IMG/VR virus record: IMGVR_UViG_3300025133_000022
Coordinates: 32,001-96,000 of that record
Length of the DNA: 64,000 nt
Source: a virus
Strand: one strand, 5' to 3'
Position numbers and translations under genes: made by a program. Shown piece by piece: positions 9,621 through 45,667 of the stretch (positions within the stretch are counted from its first letter, which is position 1; each line of letters begins with the position of its first letter). Below the pieces are notes generated by a model. That model did no database searches and was not told the DNA's origin. It worked only from the letters and a program-made list of their open reading frames with translations.

Positions 9621-9694
9621 GCTCCGGTAGCTCAGTTGGATAGAGCATCGGCCTTCTAAGCCGGCGGCCCTAGGTTCAAGTCCTAGTCGGAGCA
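9621..9694 (+). tRNA. tRNA-Arg(TCT)
   Basis: Cloverleaf; loop ctTCTaa. Confidence 0.92.
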
Positions 9695-9721
9695 CTACTC
9701 TCACAAAAAAAAGAGAAACTT

Positions 9722-10147
9722 ATGCCAATACTACTTGAGCGACCAAAACTAGTCATAGATGAAAACGGAAGGCCAATTTCAGAAAACGAAATGAAAAAAC
9801 GACAATGGAAAACCACAGTTGTTTGCGGCCAGCACAGCCTTGGCTGTGGTGCCAAATCAGAAATCGTTTTCAACGACATCTTCAAAAAAGTAATTCAAAA
9901 CCCTTCAATGACTCAAATCGGATATCATGCAAAATGCATGCATTGTCACCAAGATTTGGTAATTCCTCATAATGACACTCCTTGGCATTACGATGAAATT
10001 CCCGTGAAAACCAAATGGTTAAAAACCTATATGACGAGTCTAGTCGATACACTGCATGCAGAGTCCAACGACCGCCAACGCCTTAAAATAGATCTAATGA
10101 AAGACAATATCGATATTAAATATCTTAGAGAATACGACTGGTCATAA
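9722..10147 (+). CDS. Hypothetical protein, possible Zn-binding
   Basis: CGQHSLGCG and CMHC motifs. Confidence 0.55.
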   Translation: MPILLERPKLVIDENGRPISENEMKKRQWKTTVVCGQHSLGCGAKSEIVFNDIFKKVIQNPSMTQIGYHAKCMHCHQDLVIPHNDTPWHYDEIPVKTKWLKTYMTSLVDTLHAESNDRQRLKIDLMKDNIDIKYLREYDWS

Positions 10148-14861: not shown

Positions 14862-15767
14862 ATGAACCTTACTGAAAAAACGGCACCACCACGCACGCTG
14901 AACCCAAACGGCTGGTACATTCAAATGCACAACTATATTGGATGGGACTACAGCAAAAGAAACTTTTGTCCATTCTTTTGGAAAACTGCACTTGGATGCG
15001 CTCTCATCGGCTTCATCTTCGTCTGGCGTCTTAGCATTGCCATGCTTAAGATCGCAGCTCATGGCATCGGCTGGTGCTTAGGCGGCGTCCACAAGGCCGT
15101 TTGTTGGCTAATTCCACACAAACTTCTAAATTTCCTAGCACGCACTCTGACCAACACCATTAGCAAGCTGATAGATATTTATGAAATACAAGAGCTAAAA
15201 AGACTTGAACGTCTTTACGGCCATTACGATCAATTTGCTATGCTCATTGCATATCGTTTAGAAAACGCCAAAGATATCTCGCCCAATACACGATCAGCAT
15301 ATTACAAAACAATTACTGATCGTATCAAAATCACCAATGACGAAAACCAGACACACTGGACGCGATACCAGACAATTCCTGGAGGAAAATTACGAGTCAA
15401 ACCTGCATTAAAAATGACTGATGTCTGTTTATACAAAAATGACTACAAGCCCATTTCAGATGCAATAGCTACTCATAATGCCAAACATCAAGCAATTTTT
15501 GGTAGCATCTTGCTGTTCTCTATAGCCTGCGTGCTCTTGACTGTAATTTATGCTGTCATCGGGACTGGTGGAATGCTATCTGGCCTACTCTTTGTCAGTA
15601 AGTGGTTGCTAATAGTTGGTGGCGTTATCGCCACCATCGTTGCTACTGTTGCTGGAGCTCCTCTTGTATGGGGCTACTGGAAAGATGTAGTCATGCAAAA
15701 ATACTGCCCATCAATCATATGGGAAGAAGAAACTCAAGATAACAATTTACCAACAAAAGAGAAATAA
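14862..15767 (+). CDS. Membrane protein
   Basis: N- and C-terminal TM segments. Confidence 0.65.
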   Translation: MNLTEKTAPPRTLNPNGWYIQMHNYIGWDYSKRNFCPFFWKTALGCALIGFIFVWRLSIAMLKIAAHGIGWCLGGVHKAVCWLIPHKLLNFLARTLTNTISKLIDIYEIQELKRLERLYGHYDQFAMLIAYRLENAKDISPNTRSAYYKTITDRIKITNDENQTHWTRYQTIPGGKLRVKPALKMTDVCLYKNDYKPISDAIATHNAKHQAIFGSILLFSIACVLLTVIYAVIGTGGMLSGLLFVSKWLLIVGGVIATIVATVAGAPLVWGYWKDVVMQKYCPSIIWEEETQDNNLPTKEK

Positions 15768-19391: not shown

Positions 19392-20096
19392 ATGTCAAAC
19401 CCAACTCAATGGGACGTAGGAGGCTACGTCCGCGATGAACTCCTAGGTATTCCTAGCAAAGATCGCGACATTATGGTTGACCTGCCAAGCTACGAAAAAC
19501 TAGAAGCATGGGCAGAACAACATCTAACAAAAATCTATGAACGACGTCCTGAAATGCTTATCTTGCGAGGACACGGCCCCCTGGGGCCAGTCGATTACAA
19601 CCTCCCGCGCAACGAATCAGCCTACAGTGACAGCAGAACTCCAAACTCAGTAACGGTAGGCACTTTCGAGCAAGATATGGCTCGCAGAGATTTTACTTGT
19701 AATGCTATTGCCAAAAACATTGCAACCGGTGAAATCATAGACCTCCATGGAGGAATGTTAGACATCAATATGCGACGACTACGAATGGTAGGAAGCGCTT
19801 ACGCACGCCTTGATGAAGACCACCTACGAATTGTTCGTGCAATTCGATTCTGCATCACCAAAGGTTTCACACCATATGGAGAATTAGAGAAAATTCTACT
19901 ACATGGTGAATATGCAGATAAACTAGAATCCCTACCTGTTGAACGCATTGCAAATGAAATGTGTAAAGCATTTCATTTCAATACTGCATCAACACTGCAC
20001 TTTCTTGCGTCAATTCATCCAAAATATACAGAAGCCATCTTCTCAAAAAGACTCTGGCTACTACCAACCTTAAAAAATCGCAAATCTGCGGGATAA
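19392..20096 (+). CDS. cca: CCA-adding enzyme / tRNA nucleotidyltransferase (short form)
   Basis: VGGYVRD...DRDI, DMARRDFTCNAIA, EDHLRIVRAIRF. Confidence 0.88.
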   Translation: MSNPTQWDVGGYVRDELLGIPSKDRDIMVDLPSYEKLEAWAEQHLTKIYERRPEMLILRGHGPLGPVDYNLPRNESAYSDSRTPNSVTVGTFEQDMARRDFTCNAIAKNIATGEIIDLHGGMLDINMRRLRMVGSAYARLDEDHLRIVRAIRFCITKGFTPYGELEKILLHGEYADKLESLPVERIANEMCKAFHFNTASTLHFLASIHPKYTEAIFSKRLWLLPTLKNRKSAG

Positions 20097-23440: not shown

Positions 23441-25024
23441 ATGCCAAACCCAAACTTATTCCACACCAAAACATCCCAGCCACTAGCCACCAGCCACAAC
23501 AACGCAGGTGGTCGTGCTTACAAAACTTCCGATATGCATGCGCTTGCACAGCTAGCATGCACTGGTGTATTTAACAACACCTACTACACCAAAGCTGAAA
23601 ACCAACTCAAGCAAGCTCGCGCGCTCTGCAAAAAGGTAAGCCCAGCAACAGTTGCACGTATCGCTGTATACTCACGTCAACAAGGCATGATGAAAGACAT
23701 GCCTGTGCTCTTGCTTACCTACTTGTTTTCCATCGAAGACAAGAAATACTTCAATGCCGCATTCCCGTATGTCGTAAACAACATCGGACAGCTACGCAGC
23801 TTTGTGCAAATGGTTCGTAGTGGTGTTTGTGGTCGTCGCTCTCTTGGCTCTGCAGGCAAGCGCGCAATCGCAAACATGCTCAACACCATGACTCCTCGTC
23901 GAATCTTCTGGCAAGCCACTGGCAAAGGTATGAGTTTTGCAGATGTTCTCAAGCTTGCTCATGTAAGACCACAAAGTGCAGCACACGACAGCTTCTTTGC
24001 CTACATGTTAGGTAAAAGTGTTTCTGAAGACTTTGAGAAACTACCAGAAAACATCCAGCACTTCGAATTGTTCAAACGCAAAGAGTACAGCGAAGTACCA
24101 GATGTACCATTTCAACGCCTGACCAATCTAGATCTTAGTGTAATCCAGTGGGGTGAAGTCACGCGCAAAATGACTTGGAACCAGCTTCGTTTCAACCTAA
24201 ACAACCTCACTCGCAAAGGTGTGTTCAAGGACACTCAGCTGGTTCTCGAAGTAGCAACCAAACTTCGCAATCCCAAAGCAGTGCTTGGCAGCAAGGTTTT
24301 GCCATTCAGTCTATACAACACTGTCAAACATCTAGATGACAGTGTTCCACAAGCTCTAAAGAACGCTATGGTCGATGCACTGGAAATCAGCGGACAAAAC
24401 GCCCCTGTGCTTCAAGGCAACACCCTCGTTCTCGTCGACTCTAGTGGCTCTATGAACTCGCCAACAACTGGCTACCGTGCTGGCGCAACCACCACCATGC
24501 GTTGCGTCGAAGCAGCTGGATACTTTGCAGTCAGCATACTCAAAGCCAACCCAGACAGCACCACCATCCTGCCATTTGACGGCCGAGTTCATCCAGTGAA
24601 CTTAAATCCACGTGATAGCATGGCAACCTTAATCAAAAAACTCCCAACTGCAGGCGGAAGCACCAATATTGCTTGCGGTATTGAATGGGCACTACACACA
24701 AGTACAAAATTCAACCAAATCATCATTGTTTCTGACAATGAGAGCTGGGTGAACTCTGATCAATACATGTGGTACAGTCACAAAATCACTGCAACCAAGC
24801 AAGCTTTTGAAAGATACCGTCGTCACAAGAGCCCTGGCTGTAAAATGATTTGTATCAATATTCAGCCAAGCACTACAACAACGCAGGCACCCGATGACAA
24901 AAATACACTAAACGTAGGAGGACTCAGCGACGCAGTCTTCCGTGTTGCTAGCCAATTCCTCACCAGTCGTGGTAACGCGCACTGGGAAGATGTACTTAAC
25001 AAGATTCTTCCGAATCTCAAATAA
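23441..25024 (+). CDS. rsr: Ro60/Rsr TROVE-domain RNA-binding protein
   Basis: NNAGGRAY, LAQLACTG, MKDMP, LRFNLNNL, vWA C-terminus LVDSSGSM...GGSTN...VSDNESW. Confidence 0.92.
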   Translation: MPNPNLFHTKTSQPLATSHNNAGGRAYKTSDMHALAQLACTGVFNNTYYTKAENQLKQARALCKKVSPATVARIAVYSRQQGMMKDMPVLLLTYLFSIEDKKYFNAAFPYVVNNIGQLRSFVQMVRSGVCGRRSLGSAGKRAIANMLNTMTPRRIFWQATGKGMSFADVLKLAHVRPQSAAHDSFFAYMLGKSVSEDFEKLPENIQHFELFKRKEYSEVPDVPFQRLTNLDLSVIQWGEVTRKMTWNQLRFNLNNLTRKGVFKDTQLVLEVATKLRNPKAVLGSKVLPFSLYNTVKHLDDSVPQALKNAMVDALEISGQNAPVLQGNTLVLVDSSGSMNSPTTGYRAGATTTMRCVEAAGYFAVSILKANPDSTTILPFDGRVHPVNLNPRDSMATLIKKLPTAGGSTNIACGIEWALHTSTKFNQIIIVSDNESWVNSDQYMWYSHKITATKQAFERYRRHKSPGCKMICINIQPSTTTTQAPDDKNTLNVGGLSDAVFRVASQFLTSRGNAHWEDVLNKILPNLK

Positions 25025-25070: not shown

Positions 25071-25637
25071 ATGAAAGTATACTTATTTTTATCAAATTCA
25101 CTGAAAGACGCACTTGCTGCACACGGAATTAGTCAAGAAGATTATCGCCCGGCATATGGCGGGGAAAGCGTTGGTTTAGACCTATATAATGCAGGAGACA
25201 GAATTATAATTCCACCTGTTGAAAAGCTACGCTACTTTGCACAACTAGAACTCAATCAGGAAATGGCAAAACCTGATACTTGGTCTGATATGCCAGAAAG
25301 CGCACGAAAAGCAATTTTCAAACGACTTGTTCCTACTGGGATAAGATCAGTAATTCCTACAGGTTATGCCGGTATCATCATGGAGCGTAGTTCTATAGTA
25401 AAGACACCCCTGAAGGTGCGAGCCGGAGTTATAGATCCTGGATATACTGGAGAAATCTTTATCAATATGATAAATGTTTCAAGTATACCGTTTGTACTTG
25501 AGCCAGGAGAAAAAACTCCATTTCAGCTTATTGTGCAAAAAGTAACAACCAATTACAACGTCGTAAGCGCACAAGAGTATTCAGAACTCATAAGCAAAAA
25601 CACTCGACAAGAAAAACGTATTGGTAGCTCCGACTAA
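25071..25637 (+). CDS. dut: dUTPase
   Basis: SVGLDLY, VPTG, IMERSS, GVIDPGYTGEI, QL, RIGSSD. Confidence 0.9.
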   Translation: MKVYLFLSNSLKDALAAHGISQEDYRPAYGGESVGLDLYNAGDRIIIPPVEKLRYFAQLELNQEMAKPDTWSDMPESARKAIFKRLVPTGIRSVIPTGYAGIIMERSSIVKTPLKVRAGVIDPGYTGEIFINMINVSSIPFVLEPGEKTPFQLIVQKVTTNYNVVSAQEYSELISKNTRQEKRIGSSD

Positions 25638-25644
25638 GGATAAT

Positions 25645-28600
25645 ATGAAAACTAGAAGTACAAGAGCATTTCGATTAAGCGAAAAATTTATCGAACCATA
25701 TAAAAACAAAAACGTACCATGGGGACCAATAGGATACGTCACGTATAAGCGTACATATCCACGTCGTCTTGACGACAACAACCCAAATGCAGGTACAGAA
25801 GAATGGCATCAAACATGCAGACGAGTGATCGAAGGCATGTTCACCATGCAAAAACGCCACTGCGTTCAAGCAGGTCTTCCTTGGAGCAATGCGAAAGCTC
25901 AACGCACAGCACAAATCGCATATGACAGATTGTTCAATCTAAAGTGGACACCTCCAGGTCGTGGGTTAACTCCATAGCCCACGCTAAAGAATGTAAATTG
26001 CTGGAAACTCCTTAGAGCCTCGGACACCACACGACTGCAAGTCGAAAGGTTTGACAAGAACGAGGATTGGACAATCAGCAGCCAAGGGAATTTAATGATC
26101 AACAACCAACTACTAAGGGAAATAGAAGAAGGAGTGATTTCTAGCAGACGCCAGCTCTACAAACGAGTAGGTAGAAGTAAGAAATTATTACAGTGGCTTA
26201 ATGACAACAACATCTTAGTCCCACAAAAATGGGATGCTGGTAGAGTTAAAGCTGAACTTCTACAACTTAAGAACAAGTTGGGCAGGCTACCAAAAGCTTG
26301 TGATAATGAAGCTCTAACGGCAAGAGCACAGAAATATTATGGCACATGGAATAATGCCCTAAGAGAAATCTTTGGAGTAGTGAATCAACGATGGCACAAT
26401 CACCTGTCAAACGATCAGCTCATTGAGCTGGTTAAACAACATGTAATCACTAACCAAAGACTACCACTTAGAGAAGAGTTTGATGGCAAATCACCGGCCT
26501 ATCCATATTTTGAAGTCTATCTAAATAGATTTAACATCAAAATATGGTCAGAAATCTACACTATAGTAGATCTCACAGGAATCAAATACTTTCCACACAA
26601 GAAACATGGCACAGGATACATTTACATGCATCAAGGCGTTGTTTACTTGTCGAAGCAAGAATACCTAATAGGCAAATATTTAGTAAAAAATAACATCAAA
26701 TTTAAGAAAGAAGTACCATATGGTAATTGTAAATATATCTTTGACTTCTATCTTCCAGAACTAGACTTGTACATTGAGTACTACGGGCTAGCAACTGAAG
26801 AATATAAAAAGAAAATAGAAAACAAAAGACTACATTATGGTGTAAGAAGCGTGCTTGAGATTTTCAAGCACGAGAACACGATCAAGAAATTAAATTCCAA
26901 GGTTCAGAGACTATAATCATTCCTCGTTGGTTTAATCACGAGAAGGTATAGTCCAGCGCATGGTGAAAGCTATGCGAAAGTCCCATCTGTATGGATGATG
27001 GGCACAGACTTCGTTCAAGAACGCACCGCAGCTGGTTTGTTTAACTGCGCGTTCAGGTCTACTAAGGACCTGGCTGCCAAAGGCGGCTATCTCTTCCAGT
27101 GGATGATGGATGCCCTCATGGTGGGTATTGGAGTAGGTTTCGACACCCTCGGTGTCGGCACCCTCAAAATCAAAGCTCCTGGTAGCAAGTTCCCTACCCC
27201 AGAGCAAGTTCCTGAGATGGAAAACACCTACCATCGCATCAATGGTGAGTGGACTTGTATCATTGCTGACAGCAGGGAAGGTTGGGTTGAAAGTGTGCGC
27301 GTTCTCCTGAACGCATTCTACTTTGGCTACGAGCTACCCAACTTCTGCTACGATAGTATTCGTCCAGCAGGTAGCCTCATCAAAGGCTTTGGCGGTGTTG
27401 CCAGTGGCTCTGGGCCCCTGGCTGACCTACATCAGTCACTCATTGCTATGTACTCTGAAGCCGTTGGTAAGTTGATTACTACCGAGAACATTGTAGATAC
27501 TCAGAACCTTATTGGTAGGTGTGTGGTTGCCGGCAACGTCAGGCGCTCCGCAGCTCTAGCAATGGGACAAGCAGGTGACAAGCACTTCCTGGTACTCAAG
27601 GACCCAACCCAGGTCCACGAGTGGGAAGCTGAGCTAGCTGTATCTCTTGAGCAATACCCTCCTCCCGTACCACTCGACACATCAGTTCTTGCTGGTGCAT
27701 TGGGAGCCGAGTACGCAGAGCAGACAGCTGAAGAAGCAACAAAGATCGCGCAGCTCCTGGCAGAATTCCAAGTAGCTTGGGATCGTCAAGCTGAACTCAA
27801 GGAACTCATCACTAACCACCCTCTACGTCATCACCGTTGGGGTAGTAACAACAGCGTTGATGTCAGTGGCGTCACAGACTTTACAGAATACGCTGAGCTC
27901 ACCGTAAAGAACGGAGAGCCTGGATATATCTTCTTGGAGAACGCACGCAGACACGGGCGTCTCAAGGACCCTGAGAGAGATGACGACCTACTCGTCATGG
28001 GATTCAACCCCTGCGTAGAACAGCAACTAGAAGATGCAGAGCTTTGCTGCCTGGTGGAAACCTATCCATGGTTGCACGAGAGCTACGAAGACTACCTCAT
28101 CACCCTCAAGATCGCTTACCTATACGCTAAAACAGTTACACTGGCTAAAACCCAGTGGCCTGAGACTAACGCTATCATGCTTAAGAATCGACGTATCGGA
28201 CTAAGTATGAGTGGGTTTGTCCAAGCTGCTTACCAGCGTAGCTTCACAGAGATGTATGAGTGGTGCGACAATGCCTACGACTATGTTCAAAAGCTAGACG
28301 GCACTTACAGTGACTGGTTGTGTGTTCCGCGTAGCAAGCGGACCACCTCTATTAAACCTTCCGGTACTGTTAGCAAGCTAAATGGTAGTTGGCCCGGCAT
28401 TCATCACCCTGAATCAGAACATTACATTCAACGAATCAGGTTCTCTGAAGACAACGACATGCTACCTGCTCTCATTGCCAATGGCTATCATGTAGAGGAC
28501 TGTGTTTACAGTCCTGGCACCAAGGTGGTTAGCTTCCCTGTTAAAGAAGAACACTTTGTTCGCGGCAAAAAGGAAGTAAGCATGTGGGAGCAGTTAGAAA

Positions 28601-28911
28601 TCGCTGCCCAAATGCAATACTACTGGGCAGACAACAGCGTCAGCGTAACGGTAACCTTTCAAGATCACGAAGCAGCAAGCATTCCTCATGCATTACAGCT
28701 ATACAGCAAGCGTCTAAAAGCAGTAAGTTTCCTCAAATACAAAGAAACAGGCTATGTGCAAGCTCCTTATGAGCCTATAAGTGAAGACACTTATAAACAG
28801 ATGATAGCCAAAGTGACTCCACTTCAACGCGTTAACGCATCCACTCAGGGCGTTGGTGAGCGTTTTTGCACTACGGATAGCTGTGAAATCGACTTTAGCA
28901 AACCTAACTAA
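25645..28911 (+). CDS. nrdJ: Class II (B12-dependent) ribonucleotide reductase, spliced: join(25645..25966,26990..28911)
   Basis: Splicing restores TPPGRG-L-WMMGT; LFNCAF, GNVRRSA, GFNPCVEQ, CCLVE, TSIKPSGT. Confidence 0.92.
25967..26989 (+). mobile_element. Group I intron in nrdJ
   Basis: P1 CGTGGGT/GCCCACG with U-G pair; core elements AAATTGCTGGAAA, AATCAGCAG, GTTCAGAGACT, AAGGTATAGTCC; terminal G. Confidence 0.9.
26095..26916 (+). CDS. Intron-encoded homing endonuclease (DNA-binding repeats plus Vsr/PD-(D/E)xK-like nuclease)
   Basis: YYGTWNNAL-type repeats; C-terminal SKQE...FDFYLP...IEYYG. Confidence 0.75.
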   Translation: MINNQLLREIEEGVISSRRQLYKRVGRSKKLLQWLNDNNILVPQKWDAGRVKAELLQLKNKLGRLPKACDNEALTARAQKYYGTWNNALREIFGVVNQRWHNHLSNDQLIELVKQHVITNQRLPLREEFDGKSPAYPYFEVYLNRFNIKIWSEIYTIVDLTGIKYFPHKKHGTGYIYMHQGVVYLSKQEYLIGKYLVKNNIKFKKEVPYGNCKYIFDFYLPELDLYIEYYGLATEEYKKKIENKRLHYGVRSVLEIFKHENTIKKLNSKVQRL

Positions 28912-35187: not shown

Positions 35188-35259
35188 GAGGAATTAGCTC
35201 AGCGGTAGAGCAGCAAATTCTAAACTTGTTTGTCGGGGGTTCGAATCCCCCATTCCTCA
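35188..35259 (+). tRNA. Amber suppressor tRNA (anticodon CTA)
   Basis: Canonical cloverleaf; GCAAA-ttCTAaa-CTTGT anticodon arm with an A31-C39 mismatch. Confidence 0.8.
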
Positions 35260-35365
35260 CTGCCGTAGGCGTGCGTAGCACGCCTTGTGGATTGAGCTCT
35301 TGACACACAAAAACAATCTGGTTATGTTGTCAGACTGTTCTTTGAAAACCACAATTGAAATGAAT

Positions 35366-35439
35366 CGGAGTGTAGCGCAGCCTGGTAGCGCATCTGCTTT
35401 GGGAGCAGAGGGTCGCAGGTTCAAATCCTGCCTCTCCGA
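35366..35439 (+). tRNA. tRNA-Pro(TGG)
   Basis: Cloverleaf; loop ttTGGga. Confidence 0.92.
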
Positions 35440-35458
35440 CCTTTTCTAAAGGAACAAA

Positions 35459-35755
35459 ATGGAATACAAAACAATCGAAACAGCATTGAGAAACGCAAGC
35501 GAAAGCGTGAACTTAGCTATCCAGCAGGTTCAGCTAGCGAAAATGAAAGATGAAGCAGTAAGCTGCCACATCCAAATTGCAAGATACTTCAAGATCCATG
35601 ACAACAAGCCAACAACCTACACAGAAATAGCGACTGCTATCGGTCGCCCGAAAAAGTACGTAGCCAACGTGCTTTCTGGTTACTACAAATTCCAGAAGAC
35701 TCAGTGGGGAAAAGGCTGGAAGATGAGAAAATCTTGTCTTAAGCAAGTCCTTTAA
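35459..35755 (+). CDS. Hypothetical protein, possible winged-helix DNA binding
   Basis: TYTEIATAIGRPKKYVANVL resembles an HTH. Confidence 0.5.
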   Translation: MEYKTIETALRNASESVNLAIQQVQLAKMKDEAVSCHIQIARYFKIHDNKPTTYTEIATAIGRPKKYVANVLSGYYKFQKTQWGKGWKMRKSCLKQVL

Positions 35756-35792
35756 GTAAAAGCAATTAGTTAACGAAGAAATCGTTAACCAC

Positions 35793-35923
35793 GACTGAAT
35801 GCCTGAGCAGATTACATCGCCTTCCACGCGGGTAACACAGGTTCAAATCCTGTACTCGGCTTTATGCCGAGTTCGTCTAGCGGCTAAGACACCTCAAACT
35901 AATCTCTTGTATCCTTGTCAGTC
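35793..35923 (+). ncRNA. Scaffold element 1: circularly permuted tRNA-Gly(TCC)
   Basis: 3' half 35819-35861 precedes 5' half 35866-35894; joining gives CCTGC-ctTCCac-GCGGG; outer stem GACTGA/TCAGTC. Confidence 0.85.
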
Positions 35924-35966
35924 ACCTTCACGCCCATGATTCTGAGGCTGTAAATATCAGACGCAC

Positions 35967-36041
35967 GGCTATGTGGCTCAGTTTGGTTAGAGCAGGGGCT
36001 TCATACGCCCAAGGCCACAGGTTCAAATCCTGTCATAGCCA
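35967..36041 (+). tRNA. tRNA-Met/Ile2(CAT)
   Basis: Cloverleaf; loop ttCATac. Confidence 0.85.
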
Positions 36042-36056
36042 TTTCACACTATTTAA

Positions 36057-36132
36057 TGCGGAGTAGACTGGAGTTTGGTCCCAGCACGGTCTCATAAGCC
36101 GTATGACGTAGGTTCGAATCCTACTTCCGCCT
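36057..36132 (+). tRNA. tRNA-Met(CAT), possibly initiator-like
   Basis: Cloverleaf; loop ctCATaa; 1:72 mismatch. Confidence 0.82.
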
Positions 36133-36146
36133 CTTTAGAGAATGCA

Positions 36147-36452
36147 ATGTTTGATATAATAATTCCTTTCCTCATGGGCATCGTTCTTGTCGGTGCTATG
36201 ATGGAAAGAACTCTTACAGTCATTCAAGGAAACATTTCACGAACTGCTGTACTTAGCATTCTTATCAGTTCTGTGTATTGGTTTAACATCCAATATGTAG
36301 CGAGTGGAAATGTAGCTGCTTATATTAGTTTCAGTATAGGAACTCTTATAGTTACCTGTTGGCAAAGCTGGCGAGAAAAACAACGCTATGCTGGACAACC
36401 GGGGAAAAGCAGAAGAATGACTGACAAACTTAAAAATATTAAGAAAGAATGA
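36147..36452 (+). CDS. Small membrane protein
   Basis: Three hydrophobic segments. Confidence 0.55.
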   Translation: MFDIIIPFLMGIVLVGAMMERTLTVIQGNISRTAVLSILISSVYWFNIQYVASGNVAAYISFSIGTLIVTCWQSWREKQRYAGQPGKSRRMTDKLKNIKKE

Positions 36453-36617
36453 ACAAGAGTTTTCATCGCAAAAATAACGGCCCTAAGGTACCTAGATCTG
36501 GGCAACCAGTCAGGGAAAAATGTGAATCCTTCATGGACAAAGCATTGTGGTGACGGCAGATAAGCTTCTTGAAGCCCTGTAACGACCGGCAGAAACTCTT
36601 ACCTCCTTGTCTTTCTT
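36441..36617 (+). ncRNA. Scaffold element 2: non-tRNA cargo
   Basis: AAGAAAGA-ATG...TCATCG...AAACTCTT-ACCTC-CTTG-TCTTTCTT. Confidence 0.65.
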
Positions 36618-36654
36618 ATGTATTTGAATACTTAGTATTTCCTATTTACTTTTT

Positions 36655-36730
36655 GTCCTTGTAGCTCAGTGTTTAGAGCGCCCGAACCTGAAAAGCAGGG
36701 AGGTCGTCGGTTAGAATCCAACCAAGGACA
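36655..36730 (+). tRNA. Degenerate tRNA-like gene
   Basis: Acceptor GTCCTTG/CAAGGAC and D arm intact; T-loop GTTAGAA and anticodon arm irregular. Confidence 0.5.
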
Positions 36731-36858
36731 ACAAATACATCTAAGTGCATCCAGACCTTACAGGCAACCCAAGGGTCAAGCCTGCAAGTGAAACTGTACA
36801 TTTGTGGGTACACAAACCCCGTGAGACCGTTCTCGACACGTTAAATCGGAGGACACAC

Positions 36859-37032
36859 GTTAGAATGCCAGAGAAAGATTACATCGTGCCAATTTACGAG
36901 CCGGTGGTTCAACTCCACAGCTAGAAAGCATGTACGCACGTGCAAAGGCGTACAAGGAGCGACGTTGGGTCGCTCATCGTGGATCGAAAGCCCACGATTC
37001 CTAAAAAATCATCTTCTCACCTCTTGTCTAAC
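36859..37032 (+). ncRNA. Scaffold element 3: T-loop hairpin plus multi-hairpin cargo
   Basis: GTTAGA-ATGCC...AGATTACATCG...CTTG-TCTAAC; GTGG-TTCAACT-CCAC hairpin. Confidence 0.75.
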
Positions 37033-37071
37033 ACCCTTACTCGCGTAGTTGAACCAGCTCGCTTGTACCAC

Positions 37072-37235
37072 GTACGAATGCCCAGTGAGGATTACATCGC
37101 CTTATAAGCGGGTGGTCGCAGGTTCGAGTCCTGTCTCTCCAACCATGGTCTTGACGGGCCTGGCTGTTAGCACAGCCGGAGAGTAGCTCAGTTGGTAGAG
37201 CACCTACAAACTGATCCCACAATTTCTTGTCGTAC
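37072..37235 (+). ncRNA. Scaffold element 4: circularly permuted tRNA with TAT anticodon
   Basis: 3' half 37099-37145 ends ACCA; hairpin linker; 5' half 37177-37205; joining gives CCTGC-ctTATaa-GCGGG. Confidence 0.85.
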
Positions 37236-37278
37236 ATTTTATCGAATTGAGCGTAGCTCAAACCCACCTCAATAACCA

Positions 37279-37409
37279 TAAACAAATGCCAAATAGATTA
37301 CATCGTCCCCGCCATATGGGGACGTGGTGTACAGGCGCACACCCTGAGTCCAATCAGGGAGGAATGGGTTCGATTCCCGTGTAATAATCTATTCACTTCT
37401 TTGTTGTTT
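37279..37409 (+). ncRNA. Scaffold element 5: tRNA permuted at the T-arm/acceptor junction (65/66)
   Basis: CGTCCCC-G-CCA (37304-37314) precedes GGGGACG...T-arm (37318-37380); anticodon loop aberrant (GTCCAA). Confidence 0.78.
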
Positions 37410-37605
37410 TATGTAGCAACTGCTCCCTAAAAGTACTACATTACCATCGTGGGATACGTCAGGTTAGTCCTGGAAGACTTGGTACGTTAAGCCAAGCGCG
37501 TTAAAGCACTTAAGTGCCTTGACTGGTTTTAATCAGGATACGTCCCCGCGTCTTCACTGTCGCAAGACAGCAACCCTTCAGGTGGGTACTGATTAAAATC
37601 ACCAC

Positions 37606-37740
37606 GATCGAATGCCAGAGTAGATTACATCGCTTTTGGAGCCGGTGGTTCCCGGTTCGAATCCGGGTCTCCCTACTATAGAGAGGTAGCTTAATCAGGT
37701 AGAGCACCGTTAAAACTAATCTCTCACTTCTTTGTCGATC
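37606..37740 (+). ncRNA. Scaffold element 6: circularly permuted tRNA-Gln(TTG)
   Basis: 3' half 37632-37675, 5' half 37680-37709; joining gives CCGGC-ttTTGga-GCCGG; outer stem GATCGA/TCGATC. Confidence 0.85.
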
Positions 37741-37935
37741 ACCTTTTTCATACAAAAAACAACCATACAGATGAGAAAATATGAGAAGTAGACAATACGC
37801 CAAAATCAAAAGACGAGTACGCTTGCGTCTCATCGACGGCATGGATCCAGAACGTGTCGAAGAATTAAAAAACGAAGAACTAGCTCGCCTTGAAGCAGGC
37901 GAACGACCCTACCGAGCACCATCTCGATAGAGTAT

Positions 37936-38024
37936 GGTAGGTGTAGCTCATTTGGAGACGCAAGTCGTAGAGCGCCGGGTTGTGATTCCGGAGGTAACGG
38001 GTTCAATCCCCGTCATCTACCCCA
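37936..38024 (+). tRNA. tRNA-His(GTG) with a hairpin insertion in the D-loop
   Basis: G-1, loop ttGTGat, CCA; D-loop contains GAC-GCAA-GTC. Confidence 0.82.
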
Positions 38025-38182
38025 AGAACTAGCTAGCCTAGAGAGCACCACAGTTGAGACAACTGTGGGTCAATGTTCTCGCCACGAACAATTTGCTAAA
38101 TAGTGAAGACAGAGAGCCATGAAAAGCGACGACCTGTTGTTCAGAGCCCGTGCCTACCAGGCAGCACGACCGGGCTCACCAT

Positions 38183-38352
38183 GTTGGAATGCCATGTAGA
38201 ATACACCGAATCAACGTAAACCCGGCGCCTTTTGGCTTTGTAGGTTCGAATCCTACCTCACCGACCAAAGCTCTTGAAATAAGAGTTAGGTGAGTGGTGA
38301 AATGGTAAACACTCCGGATGATTTTATCTTCATCTACACTTCCTTGTCCAAC
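38183..38352 (+). ncRNA. Scaffold element 7: circularly permuted tRNA-Tyr-like (GTA, type II)
   Basis: 3' half about 38215-38266 (GTAAA-CCCGG, variable arm, T arm, ACCA); hairpin linker; 5' half 38288-38319; outer stem GTTGGA/TCCAAC. Confidence 0.8.
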
Positions 38353-38436
38353 ACCCCACGGGAAAGCAACTCTTCGCGTAGAGTTGAGAGGAGCAGGCTC
38401 ACTGCAGTCGCGCCCAGTCGCGACCTTTCCCACCAC

Positions 38437-38567
38437 GACCGAATGCCCTAGATAACTACATCGTAAAACTTGAAATTTTAAGGTCTGGGTTCGAGTCCCA
38501 GTGGGTCCACTTTGGGCCTGTGGTGTAACGGTAGCATCAAACATGTTATCTAACTCTTTTGTCGGTC
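38437..38567 (+). ncRNA. Scaffold element 8: tRNA permuted near 26/27 (TGA loop, short variable region)
   Basis: TAAAA-ctTGAaa-TTTTA, T arm, TGGGTCC-A, linker CTTT, GGGCCTG plus D arm; outer stem GACCGA/TCGGTC. Confidence 0.78.
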
Positions 38568-38573
38568 ACCTTT

Positions 38574-38650
38574 GCGGGCATAGCTCACGCTGGTAGAGCA
38601 CCTCGTTGCCAACGAGGAGGTAGTGGGATCATCGCCCACTGTCCGCTCCA
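38574..38650 (+). tRNA. tRNA-Gly(GCC), atypical T-loop
   Basis: Loop ttGCCaa; UCCA end; T-loop ATCATCG. Confidence 0.82.
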
Positions 38651-38745
38651 AGGGTCTTGAAAACATCCCTACTCGTTAGGTAGCATCTTCCTGCTACATT
38701 CTGTCGTCTGCCAAGAGTCAGCGGCAGTCTTATATTGACTCTTAT

Positions 38746-38833
38746 GCGGGGTTAGCTCAGTCTGGCCAGAGCGCCGGCCTTCCAAGCCGGAGGCGAATAG
38801 TTTACACGGGTTCGAATCCCGTACCCCGCTCCA
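38746..38833 (+). tRNA. tRNA-Gly(TCC) with an extended variable region
   Basis: Loop ctTCCaa; UCCA end; ~15-nt variable segment. Confidence 0.82.
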
Positions 38834-38838
38834 TGCAC

Positions 38839-38913
38839 AAGAACGAGGGTTCCATTGAGAGGAATCGTGGGCGAATAGCCCACTAGATGGTTCGAATCCA
38901 TCCGTTCTTACCA
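38839..38913 (+). ncRNA. D-armless tRNA-Ser(TGA)-like RNA
   Basis: Acceptor AAGAACG/CGTTCTT-ACCA, TTCC-atTGAga-GGAA, variable arm GTGGGC/GCCCAC, T arm; no D arm. Confidence 0.6.
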
Positions 38914-39468
38914 CGCCCGTGAATACAATTACCACCTACCTGGATGCATCTTGTGTAGGCTGGACTGGGTAACTTCTCAACAACATTCATCTGGACCCAG
39001 GTGACCCTGCGGTTGAAAACATGGTTCGATCCCATGCACAGGCTCTGAAAAAGGCAGGATAGATAGCTGTACAATCTGCTATAACAAAAATATATACACC
39101 AAGTGGGGCGAGAAACCCACACCCATGCACATCGCCAATGTAGGGTCCGAGATCTGTCGAACCACTGACCTGACGGGAGTTAACCCTAATCAGACATGTA
39201 ATAACAGCAATCACCCATGTGCGGGTCATGCTAATGACGTTGGTGCCATCTCTAGGTATGCAGTAGCCCGGCCACCATCCCGGAACTGCAATGAGAAAGA
39301 ACACATCCTGAGGTTTGTGTATAATTAACCTCAACTTTATATGGCTTGTACTGTGGATACACATTCAAGCCAGTTCTTAAGCAGTCAATTAGATGACGTG
39401 CAGTGCGAGTACTCTTGCTGTGGTGACGACGGTCACAAACAAAATCTAACAAAAAGCTAAGAACAAAT

Positions 39469-39542
39469 GCGGGGGTAGTTTTCAACCGATAAAACATCGG
39501 CCTTCCAAGCCGAAGTCCCGAGTTCAAACCTCGGTGCCCGCT
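39469..39542 (+). tRNA. tRNA-Gly(TCC)
   Basis: Cloverleaf; loop ctTCCaa; U73. Confidence 0.82.
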
Positions 39543-39907
39543 CTTGTGTGATTAACTCATAGCCTACCGGCAAAACAAGACCTCGATCTTGTTCCAATAG
39601 AGCACCTGCGCAAAGGCAGGAGGTAGAGAGTTTAGGCGACTCTCATTGCACACCACGGGGAATAGCGCATCTGTGATGATCTATGAAGTAGCCAACAGAT
39701 CATTGGCGAAAAGTTGCATGCGCGCACACTGTCATAAATACTTCGAAGTAATGCGTCGACGGACAAGTGAACCAAGTACGGAGATAGCAATGCGTCTTAG
39801 CGCGTTGGATGTGGATCCAGAGGTACCCCGTGTGGGGTTCCCCAACCATTAAAGAATAATCATGGGTACAAACGAAAGTACCAGTGGCTTGAAGTAACAA
39901 TTACCAC

Positions 39908-39978
39908 GGGACCTTAGCTCAACGGTAGAGCAGTGGGCTTTTAACCTTCTGATCAGGGTTCGATTCCCTGAGGTCCCA
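39908..39978 (+). tRNA. tRNA-Lys(TTT)
   Basis: Cloverleaf; loop ctTTTaa. Confidence 0.88.
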
Positions 39979-40146
39979 TCAAGTTCAGGATGTAAGCAGT
40001 AGCGCTACAATACTTACTAGCACGACCAAGCGGTCCCAGAGGATACTCTGATCTGCAGCCTCGTGTAAACAGGGAGACACAATCTCCCTGCCTGAACACT
40101 TAAACTGCAGCCAACTGGCTGCATTCTTTTTAAGAAAGGAGGAATA

Positions 40147-45040: not shown

Positions 45041-45299
45041 TCTTCTAATCGTTCTGTCGATGCTAGGCACTATTGCCTTCTGCTGTGCAATCCTTTGGTC
45101 ACTGCCACAATTGTGGTACAGAATCAAATATGGGAAATTCAAACCTTCTTATGAAGAGCTTGAGCTACAGCACACAAAAGAAATACAAGAACTACACAAC
45201 GCGCACGTTGCGAAAGACCTCAAATTCGAAAGAGAAAGAAACGAAAGCCTCTCAACCGAACTGAAAAACACAATCAAAAAACTGGTCGATAAAATTTGA
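45024..45299 (+). CDS. Membrane-anchored coiled-coil protein
   Basis: N-terminal TM helix. Confidence 0.55.
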   Translation: MLIPNSLLIVLSMLGTIAFCCAILWSLPQLWYRIKYGKFKPSYEELELQHTKEIQELHNAHVAKDLKFERERNESLSTELKNTIKKLVDKI

Positions 45300-45313: not shown

Positions 45314-45667
45314 ATGAATACCTACGAAATTCAACGTACCGTAACCACCACAAGAACCATCATCTCGCGCAAAACTTTCACTGAGACAGTTGAAAGCGAC
45401 AGCTTCTCTTCCGCAGCACTGGGAGCAGAAAGCGCTGCCATCTTTAGTAGTGATAGCCTCAGCGTCAAGACAGTCTCTGACTCCACGGAAGAGACCGAAG
45501 CAGTCATGGAAAGCATCAAGTTCGTTGGTGTGGCGAAAGCACCTGAAGTCGCGTCGGCTCCAGTTGATGATGGCAGCGGCCTGACCCCCGCACGCTATGA
45601 TTCTAGCCTCGCGCCAAGTGGAAAGGCATACTTCCCGATGCAGGTTGAACCAACTCCCAACACCTGA
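45314..45667 (+). CDS. Hypothetical protein
   Basis: ORF with RBS. Confidence 0.6.
   Translation: MNTYEIQRTVTTTRTIISRKTFTETVESDSFSSAALGAESAAIFSSDSLSVKTVSDSTEETEAVMESIKFVGVAKAPEVASAPVDDGSGLTPARYDSSLAPSGKAYFPMQVEPTPNT

What the first reader, a model, noticed from the sequence alone, without database searches (positions are those of the whole stretch)
35793..38567. Compensatory covariation of the outer stem around a fixed internal loop
Seen: the outer stems differ in sequence but always pair: GACTGA/TCAGTC, AAGAAAGA/TCTTTCTT, GTTAGA/TCTAAC, GTACGA/TCGTAC, AAACAA/TTGTTT, GATCGA/TCGATC, GTTGGA/TCCAAC, GACCGA/TCGGTC. The adjacent ATG(CC) and (C/T)TTG are nearly invariant, and most copies are flanked by CAC upstream and ACC plus a pyrimidine run downstream. 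Inference: selection acts on RNA structure and on a protein-binding or processing site. The CGAATG strand resembles the GNCGAAN(0-1)G motif I recall for bacterial Y RNA Ro-binding stems.
Basis: partly seen in the sequence, partly recalled or inferred. Interest (0 to 1): 0.85.

Follow-up and report, generated by a model that had tools for sequence, protein, structure and literature searches.

The report
Eight phage Y RNAs, Ro60-docking stem
The covarying stem around a fixed loop is the Ro60-protein docking module of eight YrlA-type Y RNAs (tRNA-mimicking non-coding RNAs) packed into the tRNA gene array of a 192-kb phage: a known RNA class, here in unusually many copies with unusually varied inner domains.

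Summary
Eight + strand elements (35793-38567) share a 6-bp outer stem. Its four variable pairs are Watson-Crick paired in 32 of 32 positions. They also share invariant GAAUGCC on the 5' side and YUUGUC on the 3' side.

The Rfam YrlA model (RF02553) aligns end to end with three copies, below its cut-off. Its consensus already carries CgaAUGC...cUuGucG, so the "fixed loop" is the known YrlA Ro-binding module.

The phage encodes Ro60 (23441-25024), 10.8 kb upstream on the same strand. The same RNA motif lies beside Ro60 genes in unrelated bacteria and phages. On 40 sequences all five helices covary (0 of 500 shuffles reach the observed values). Orthologous copies in sibling phages show compensatory double substitutions.

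New relative to the literature I could read:
- Eight copies, against 1-6 in relatives.
- They sit inside a probably co-transcribed tRNA array.
- The ends look like a tRNA acceptor end (CAC|G...C|ACC).
- The inner domains differ. Five are permuted tRNA-like domains. One is a complete permuted tRNA cloverleaf with GCCA and a 6-nt anticodon loop. Two lack a D arm.

Ro60 binding is inferred, not shown. The scan's other notes concern this same stretch only.

The parts
35793..35923 (+). Y RNA copy c1 (131 nt). Outer stem GACTGA/TCAGTC. Permuted tRNA-like domain in the order V hairpin, T arm, 7-bp closed acceptor-like stem, D arm.
   Evidence: R1 scores 129.8 bits; R2 scores 117.1 bits.
36441..36617 (+). 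Y RNA copy c2 (177 nt). 8-bp outer stem AAGAAAGA/TCTTTCTT, loop AUGAAC, second stem AAGAGTTT/AAACTCTT, then UCAUCG. The interior has no T or D arm (YrlB-like). Its 5' end overlaps the stop codon of ORF 36075-36452.
   Evidence: It was in neither model's training set, yet R2 finds it with filters off (26.8 bits, E 1.8e-5, full model).
36859..37032 (+). Y RNA copy c3 (174 nt). Outer stem GTTAGA/TCTAAC. V hairpin and a short T-like hairpin (GTGG-TTCAACT-CCAC), then four further hairpins. No D arm.
   Evidence: R1 scores 48.4 bits although c3 was not in its training set. Its ortholog L129:14389 carries GTCAGA/TCTGAC, a compensatory change.
37072..37235 (+). Y RNA copy c4 (164 nt). Outer stem GTACGA/TCGTAC. 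Canonical YrlA order of arms. The acceptor-like 3' strand is followed by A-CCA and a 27-nt spacer hairpin before the acceptor 5' strand.
   Evidence: Rfam YrlA 40.9 bits over the full model. The T arm plus acceptor 3' strand resembles the 3' end of the phage's own tRNA-Pro (score 22 of 30).
37280..37409 (+). Y RNA copy c5 (130 nt). Outer stem AAACAA/TTGTTT, with A-U where the others have G-C. The cargo is a complete tRNA cloverleaf, circularly permuted between the T stem and the acceptor 3' strand. The acceptor stem is closed through GCCA-TAT. The anticodon loop has 6 nt (GUCCAA).
   Evidence: When un-permuted in a script, ARAGORN calls a 74-nt tRNA, '?(Gly|Trp)(cc)'; the native order gives nothing. 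R1 scores 31.7 bits and R2 34.8 bits, with c5 in neither training set. It is the only one of 42 scaffold copies with its T loop in the 3' half.
37606..37740 (+). Y RNA copy c6 (135 nt). Outer stem GATCGA/TCGATC. Canonical YrlA order of arms.
   Evidence: Rfam YrlA 37.6 bits over the full model. R1 scores 153.1 bits.
38183..38352 (+). Y RNA copy c7 (170 nt). Outer stem GTTGGA/TCCAAC. T arm, then an acceptor-like stem with a long inserted hairpin, then a D-like arm. Has CACCG in place of CATCG.
   Evidence: R1 scores 80.5 bits. Its ortholog L130:15822 has GTCGAA/TTCGAC, which is two compensatory changes.
38437..38567 (+). Y RNA copy c8 (131 nt). Outer stem GACCGA/TCGGTC. Canonical order of arms. 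Followed after 6 nt (ACCTTT) by tRNA-Gly.
   Evidence: Rfam YrlA 27.2 bits and a partial tRNA hit at 38449-38501. The syntenic ortholog L130:16616 has GACTGA/TCAGTC.
23441..25024 (+). Ro60 (Rsr/TROVE) gene, the presumed protein partner. It lies 10.8 kb upstream of c1 on the same strand.
   Evidence: PF25045 vWA_Ro60 at 2.4e-18 and PF05731 TROVE at 23.1 bits (cut-off 23). PDB 2NVO Rsr at 1.4e-17; phage phiLo Ro60 9KOP at 5.8e-16. 2221 homologs at E<=1e-20.
35300..40123 (+). Probable single transcription unit holding the eight Y RNAs and the interleaved tRNAs (35366-35441, 35967-36041, 36057-36133, 36655-36730, 37937-38021, 38574-38650, 38746-38833, 39469-39543, 39908-39978).
   Evidence: Promoter-like TTGACA-17-TATGTT at 35300-35328. 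No + strand terminator-like site until 40106-40123 (consensus scan only). tRNAs.
19392..20096 (+). tRNA nucleotidyltransferase-like gene (PolyA_pol head domain). Context only: a possible maturation enzyme for ends that finish in ACC.
   Evidence: PF01743 at 1.5e-20. The same gene sits upstream of Ro60 in sibling locus L100.

Best explanation
The eight elements are paralogous Y RNAs of the bacterial YrlA type, encoded by an uncultivated 192.5-kb phage.

Each has a constant docking module:
- a 6-bp terminal stem whose four outer pairs only need to be helical, which is why they covary;
- two fixed pairs, G-C and A-U;
- an asymmetric internal loop with invariant AUG(CC) facing a pyrimidine-rich strand that ends in YUUG;
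- a second stem;
- the conserved (Y)UAC-AUCG junction.

By analogy with characterised Ro60-Y RNA complexes, the fixed letters are read base-specifically by the phage Ro60 (23441-25024), and the variable stem supplies the shape.

Each also has a variable inner module. In c1, c4, c6, c7 and c8 it is a permuted tRNA-like domain (V hairpin, T arm, closed acceptor stem, D arm). In c5 it is a complete permuted tRNA cloverleaf. In c2 and c3 it is other hairpins. This module is the tether or gate end, which in studied systems links Ro60 to PNPase and is handled by tRNA enzymes.

The RNAs are probably made from the same long transcript as the tRNAs and cut out by tRNA-processing enzymes. The conserved CAC|G...C|ACC ends mimic G1-C72, A73, C74, C75 of a tRNA.

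Shown here: the anatomy, the covariation, the homology to YrlA, and the co-occurrence with Ro60. Inferred: Ro60 binding, PNPase tethering, co-transcription and processing.
For: - Full-length alignments to Rfam YrlA, whose consensus carries the same fixed letters.
- A Ro60 gene on the same strand.
- A DNA pattern taken only from the RNA (GAATGCC...GATTACATCG...GGTTC) pulled out loci from public genomes and metagenomes. In 10 of the 12 loci where model R1 confirmed a copy, a Ro60 gene lies in the same fetched stretch (Hahella, Sphingomonadales, Pyrinomonadaceae and others).
- Two of those relatives pass Rfam's YrlA cut-off (87.3 and 70.6 bits).
- Covariation on 40 sequences: 93.6% of cells are paired against 65.0% in shuffles, the covariation score is 0.682 against 0.183, 0 of 500 shuffles reach the observed values, and slid controls give at most 0.17. 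Every helix has double changes.
- A12, A13, U14, G15, U313, G315 and U316 are invariant in 40 of 40 sequences.
- Sibling phages (Ro60 72% and 56% identical, and more distant ones) carry syntenic arrays of several copies each. Ortholog-level compensatory changes are seen in c3, c7 and c8.
- The YUAY motif and the T, AS, D and V arms described by Chen et al. 2014 are present.
- A phage Ro60 has been shown experimentally to bind two phage Y-like RNAs and host PNPase (PMC12135203).
Against: - Scores are below Rfam's gathering score (at most 40.9 against 69).
- The strict GNCGAAN0-1G motif is matched by none of the eight.
- The array is 10.8-13.5 kb from Ro60, not within the 4 kb used by Chen et al.
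- c2 and c3 lack the D arm of the tRNA-like domain that defines YrlA, and c5 has a different topology.
- There is no expression or binding data: the phage is known only from a metagenome.
- The 40-sequence alignment was fitted to the model's structure, which favours pairing. The anchored test does not have this bias, but it covers only the outer stem.
Confidence: 0.85

Rival explanations
1. They are circularly permuted tRNA genes. The conserved two-strand cassette would be a processing signal: it is removed, the ends are joined, and functional decoding tRNAs result, as in the permuted tRNA genes of the red alga Cyanidioschyzon merolae (recalled from my own knowledge).
For: c5 contains every part of a tRNA, including discriminator G and CCA, and ARAGORN calls it once it is un-permuted. 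c4 carries A-CCA after its acceptor 3' strand. The window's tRNA set lacks Trp, His, Cys, Tyr and Ala.
Against: In c1, c4, c6, c7 and c8 the scaffold replaces the anticodon arm, so there is no anticodon to decode with. c5's anticodon loop has 6 nt. c2 and c3 carry no complete tRNA. The same cassette sits next to Ro60 genes in bacteria that have complete ordinary tRNA sets, and it aligns to YrlA over its full length. No bulge-helix-bulge motif is evident.
Confidence: 0.04
2. They are tRNA-mimic decoys or processing elements that act without Ro60. For example, they might soak up host tRNA-cleaving defence nucleases or tRNA-modifying enzymes. The conserved loop would then be read by another factor.
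For: The array is 10.8 kb from Ro60 and embedded among tRNAs. The D arms of c1, c7 and c8 depart from the near-invariant YrlA D arm and look like those of other tRNAs. The ends mimic an acceptor end.
Against: The conserved loop letters are exactly those of RNAs that sit beside Ro60 across phyla. Every phage found here with the scaffold also has Ro60 wherever enough sequence was held: G001, Mx1, L129-L132.
Confidence: 0.07
3. The cassette is a self-cleaving ribozyme, a mini-intron, or a mobile element that captures RNAs.
For: The cargo varies between copies, and the break point differs in c5. Copy number differs between sibling phages.
Against: No ribozyme or intron family matches, even at E up to 10. 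The invariant letters are explained by the known Ro-binding module. No target-site duplications or associated transposase or integrase were seen in the array.
Confidence: 0.02
4. They are neutral tandem duplicates or terminator-like hairpins without a function of their own.
For: They are clustered paralogs.
Against: The variable stem letters differ in all eight copies yet pair perfectly. The fixed letters are conserved across phyla. Orthologs show compensatory substitutions. No + strand terminator-like sites lie in the array.
Confidence: 0.01

Closest known systems
YrlA Y RNAs (Rfam RF02553; S. Typhimurium, M. smegmatis, mycobacteriophages; Chen et al. 2014, PMC4201824)
   Same: - Terminal stem with CGAAUGC on the 5' strand and CUUGUCG on the 3' strand.
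- YUAY before a V hairpin.
- T arm, closed acceptor-like stem and D arm, in that permuted order.
- A Ro60 gene on the same strand.
- Full-length model alignment for c4, c6 and c8.
   Different: - Scores are below the family cut-off, because of long insertions in the V and acceptor-like arms.
- The outer-stem letters vary freely, so the strict GNCGAA motif is lost.
- Eight copies.
- They sit inside a tRNA array 10.8 kb from Ro60.
- The D arms of c1, c7 and c8 are not the near-invariant YrlA D arm.
- The ends are acceptor-like (G...C-ACC).
YrlB (second Rsr-bound RNA of S. Typhimurium)
   Same: It carries the Ro-binding motif but no tRNA-like domain. c2, c3 and the short 79-103-nt scaffold copies in sibling phages look the same in this respect.
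Yrn1 of Deinococcus radiodurans
   Same: c5 has the D arm, then a 5-bp stem with a 6-nt loop, then the T arm. Chen et al. describe this order and this odd 6-nt 'anticodon loop' for Yrn1.
   Different: c5 keeps the YrlA-type docking module. It also has a closed 7-bp acceptor stem with GCCA, which is not described for Yrn1.
Yrl1 and Yrl2 of Thermus phage phiLo with phiRo60 (PMC12135203)
   Same: These are phage-encoded Y-like RNAs with a 5'-3' stem flanking a bulge that holds a CGAA motif. They are bound by a phage Ro60 and can form a complex with host PNPase.
   Different: There are two copies directly upstream of Ro60. They are not in a tRNA array, and no tRNA-like cargo is described in the passages I read.
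Metazoan Y RNAs
   Same: The terminal stem carries the Ro60 site (GGUCCGA, contacted mainly on the 5' strand), and the rest of the RNA is a variable loop domain.
   Different: They have no tRNA-like module, and the register of the conserved letters within the helix differs.

Membership tests
YrlA (Rfam RF02553) | Score at or above the family's gathering score (69 bits) | tested here: not met
   Best scores are 40.9 (c4), 37.6 (c6) and 27.2 (c8) bits. The other five copies are not reported at E<=10. The alignments are nevertheless full length, model 1-114.
YrlA (Chen et al. 2014) | GNCGAAN0-1G motif near the 5' end | tested here: not met
   The strict motif is present in 0 of 8 copies. CGAAUG is in c4, c6 and c8; GAAUG in 7 of 8; AAAUG in c5. 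The bacterial relatives found here read GGCGAAUG, which fits the motif. AAUG is invariant in 40 of 40 sequences.
YrlA (Chen et al. 2014) | T-arm-like stem-loop followed by an acceptor-like stem-loop and then a D-arm-like stem-loop | tested here: met
   Present in c1, c4, c6, c7 and c8, with covariation in all three helices. Not present in this form in c2, c3 (T-like hairpin only) or c5 (different order).
YrlA (Chen et al. 2014) | Conserved YUAY at the start of the V region | tested here: met
   UUAC in c1, c3, c4, c5 and c6; CUAC in c8. The exceptions are AUAC in c7 and UUUC in c2.
YrlA (Chen et al. 2014) | Encoded within 4 kb of a Ro60 ortholog and on the same strand | tested here: not met
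   The strand is the same, but the distance is 10.8 kb (from Ro60's end at 25024 to c1 at 35793) to 13.4 kb (c8). The same spacing recurs in sibling phages, G001 and Mx1.
Y RNA (functional definition) | Bound by Ro60 in vivo or in vitro | not testable with these tools
   Only co-occurrence is shown: Ro60 lies in the same locus in 10 of 12 loci that were found from the RNA motif alone.
Permuted tRNA gene | All tRNA parts are present, so that a decoding tRNA can be produced | tested here: not met
   The five canonical copies have no anticodon arm. c5 has all the arms but a 6-nt anticodon loop.

The most novel reading that the evidence does not exclude
In a clade of tRNA-rich, Ro60-encoding phages, the Ro60-docking scaffold has become a modular carrier that is duplicated and loaded with interchangeable cargo. 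The cargo includes domains resembling different tRNAs and one complete permuted tRNA: Trp-like, with CCA in the loop, discriminator G and an encoded CCA end. The RNAs would be cut from the tRNA transcript by RNase P and 3' tRNA enzymes, by virtue of their acceptor-like G...C-ACC ends. As a panel, they would direct Ro60 (with host PNPase) to several tRNA-handling enzymes or host tRNA-directed defences, or shield the phage from them.
Probability: 0.15. Interest if true: 0.75.

Novelty: new variant of a known kind. Interest (0 to 1): 0.5.

Why it matters
What the tRNA-like domain of bacterial Y RNAs is for remains open (discussion of Chen et al. 2014). A phage that keeps eight Y RNAs with one constant Ro60-docking module and different inner domains is a natural swap experiment. 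The docking module and the cargo can be tested separately against one protein.

It also extends recent hints. Phage Ro60 genes sit next to tRNA arrays and may counter host defence (Bas63 gp130 against Ppl, PMC11482910). Three abundant RNAs lie near an Rsr-like gene in a Listeria phage (PMC12282133).

There is a practical point. These RNAs fall below Rfam's YrlA cut-off and are unannotated in isolated phages such as Myxococcus phage Mx1, where one copy overlaps an annotated hypothetical CDS.

Tried and rejected
- blastn of the array against isolated phages found only tRNA-sized matches.
- Ro60-based locus searches in IMG/VR found only one relative, G001.
- A 16-base motif scan of viral contigs gave 79 stretches, nearly all chance. 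One two-hit locus (L071) is a protein-coding tandem repeat. Only L028 was real.
- A loose stem descriptor gave 16 hits in the genome against 8.4 in shuffles, so it was too weak. The hits outside the array lack the CAUCG junction.
- Weak model hits at window 9624-9746 and next to Ro60 in G001 are ordinary tRNAs.
- Records behind ENA loci could not be searched whole. The sibling arrays were reached instead through the peptidase gene upstream of the array.
- ORF 35459-35755 has no homologs.
- Comparing each tRNA-like half with the phage's own 24 tRNAs gave no clear donor, except that c4 resembles the tRNA-Pro 3' end. Recent capture from the phage's own tRNAs is therefore not supported.
- Chen et al.'s supplementary tables (copies per phage) and two Wolin-lab reviews were not held. 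'Most copies reported' therefore rests only on what I could read.
- No protein complex or structure prediction was run, because the question is about RNA.
Full report
**What is there.** The window is bases 32001-96000 of a 192,537-bp IMG/VR virus record rated complete. Between 35793 and 38567, on the + strand, lie eight elements of 130-177 nt. They are interleaved with tRNA genes.

Each element has:
- a terminal stem of 6 bp (8 bp in c2);
- a 5' loop strand AUGCC (AUGAAC in c2);
- a second stem of 6-10 bp, often with one bulged base;
- the junction (Y)UAC-AUCG;
- a variable interior;
- a pyrimidine-rich 3' loop strand that ends in YUUG.

**Is it more than chance?** I used only the invariant anchors GAAUG and UUGU(C/U) to locate the stem. 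The four variable positions are paired in 32 of 32 cells. Dealing the 3' strands out again among the eight copies gives a mean of 18.4 and reaches 32 only for the identity permutation (1 of 20000). A composite descriptor finds exactly these eight on the + strand of the window. A covariance model finds no further convincing copy anywhere in the genome.

**What it is.** Rfam's YrlA model (RF02553) aligns over its whole length with c4, c6 and c8, at 40.9, 37.6 and 27.2 bits. These scores are below its cut-off of 69. Much of the loss looks due to 15-36-nt insertions in the V and acceptor-like arms.

The printed consensus reads acggCgaAUGC... on the 5' strand and ...cUuGucGccg on the 3' strand. Chen et al. 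2014 describe:
- the motif GNCGAAN0-1G;
- a YUAY before the V region;
- the T, acceptor-like and D arms, in permuted order.

All of these except the strict motif are visible in c1, c4, c6, c7 and c8.

The ORF at 23441-25024 is a Ro60. Its neighbours on the same strand include:
- a tRNA nucleotidyltransferase-like gene;
- a Macro-domain gene;
- dUTPase and a ribonucleotide reductase;
- PTH2 further on.

**Wider evidence.** A DNA pattern taken only from the RNA was scanned over public metagenomes and species genomes. My model R1 confirmed copies in 12 of the fetched loci. In 10 of those 12, a Ro60 gene lies in the same stretch. Examples:
- the Hahella sp. NBU794 chromosome, with Ro60 followed by at least four tandem copies;
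- several Sphingomonadales;
- a Pyrinomonadaceae MAG.

Two relatives pass Rfam's YrlA cut-off.

Phages related through Ro60 carry arrays at the syntenic place, after a tRNA(CUA) and tRNA-Pro:
- L129: about 6 copies;
- L130: 6 copies;
- L131: about 5 copies;
- L132: at least 4 copies.

A more distant 165.8-kb phage (G001, Ro60 36% identical) has one copy in its tRNA array. Myxococcus phage Mx1 has two, both unannotated.

**Covariation.** On 40 sequences:
- 93.6% of cells are paired, against 65.0% in shuffles;
- the covariation score is 0.682, against 0.183 in shuffles and at most 0.17 for slid partners;
- the outer helix is 97.9% paired, with double changes in 5 of 6 pairs.

That alignment is fitted to the model, which favours pairing. 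The anchored test above does not have this bias.

Between orthologs there are clean compensatory changes:
- c3 GTTAGA/TCTAAC against GTCAGA/TCTGAC;
- c8 GACCGA/TCGGTC against GACTGA/TCAGTC;
- c7 GTTGGA/TCCAAC against GTCGAA/TTCGAC.

A-A-U-G on the 5' side and U..G-U on the 3' side are invariant in 40 of 40 sequences. Chen et al. wrote that only the 5' strand is recognisable in the Salmonella and M. smegmatis RNAs. Here the 3' strand YUUGUC is equally conserved.

**What differs from described Y RNAs.**

1. Copy number. There are eight here. The literature I could read reports one or two per phage, and 355 RNAs in 276 genomes.

2. Position. The array lies inside a tRNA array 10.8 kb from Ro60. 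No + strand terminator-like site occurs between a promoter-like site at 35300 and 40106. This comes from a weak consensus scan.

3. Ends. CAC|G upstream and C|ACC plus pyrimidines downstream recur in this phage and its siblings. This matches G1-C72, A73, C74, C75 of a tRNA. The phage's own tRNA-Pro is likewise followed by ACCTTTT. That suggests, but does not show, maturation by tRNA-processing enzymes.

4. Cargo.
   - c4 encodes A-CCA after its acceptor 3' strand, and its T arm plus acceptor strand resembles tRNA-Pro.
   - c5 is a complete cloverleaf permuted between the T stem and the acceptor 3' strand, closed through GCCA-TAT, with a 6-nt loop GUCCAA. ARAGORN calls it a tRNA once it is un-permuted. 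Its D, 5-bp/6-nt-loop, T order recalls Yrn1.
   - c2 and c3 lack a D arm. c2 was recovered by a model that had never seen it (26.8 bits).

**How it most likely works.** By analogy with the X. laevis, D. radiodurans, Salmonella and phage phiLo systems, Ro60 reads the fixed loop and the adjacent fixed pairs. The outer pairs only need to be a helix. The inner domain is the tether or gate, and a substrate for tRNA enzymes. M. smegmatis YrlA is cut by RNase P and receives CCA; c4 and c5 look built for the same treatment. All of this is inference.

**Verdict.** The elements work like YrlA but fail three formal membership tests: Rfam score, strict motif, and 4-kb proximity. I therefore file them as a divergent phage variant of the YrlA kind, not as something new in kind.

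Noticed in passing
window 35188-35260; also L129:12057-12135, L130:12369-12443, L131:11430-11504 and 14946-15021, L132:15961-16035, G001 (L090:242-314): A tRNA with anticodon CUA (an amber suppressor, which ARAGORN labels 'Pyl') sits just upstream of the Y RNA array. It is conserved at that place in every related phage examined.
   Followed up: partly
window 38839-38914: A cloverleaf tRNA-like element that neither ARAGORN nor Rfam calls. It has a 7-bp acceptor stem AAGAACG/CGTTCTT followed by ACCA, a canonical T arm, and a 6-bp stem with a 5-nt loop where the anticodon arm should be. Folding z-score is -3.96.
   Followed up: partly
window 36655-36730 and 37937-38021: Two tRNAs are found by Rfam but not by ARAGORN. 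One has 14 nt where the model expects 11 in the anticodon region. The other has a 15-nt insertion in the D loop.
   Followed up: no
L127:8251-8384 and L127:8608-8709 (Myxococcus phage Mx1, OR576727.2, about 45165-45298 and 45522-45623): Two unannotated Y-scaffold copies lie inside the Mx1 tRNA array, 11.3-11.6 kb upstream of its TROVE gene. The second overlaps an annotated 'hypothetical protein' CDS (record 45524-45646).
   Followed up: partly
L118:1-746 (Hahella sp. NBU794 chromosome NZ_CP192738.1): A bacterial Ro60 gene is followed on the same strand by at least four tandem YrlA-like RNAs. The locus ends inside the array.
   Followed up: partly
window 25621-28911: An ORF with a homing-endonuclease-associated repeat (26095-26916) lies between dUTPase and a ribonucleotide reductase ORF of 638 aa. 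In sibling phage L100 the reductase is 731 aa and follows dUTPase directly. This suggests an endonuclease or intron insertion in the reductase gene.
   Followed up: no
window 37480-37600 and 38028-38172: Non-coding spacers inside the array fold somewhat better than shuffles (z -2.5 and -2.1). They could be further small RNAs.
   Followed up: no
L129:14969-15116: A high-scoring sibling copy (99 bits) has an outer stem, GTCGGA against TCGATC, that does not pair in three of six positions. It is the only clear exception seen.
   Followed up: no
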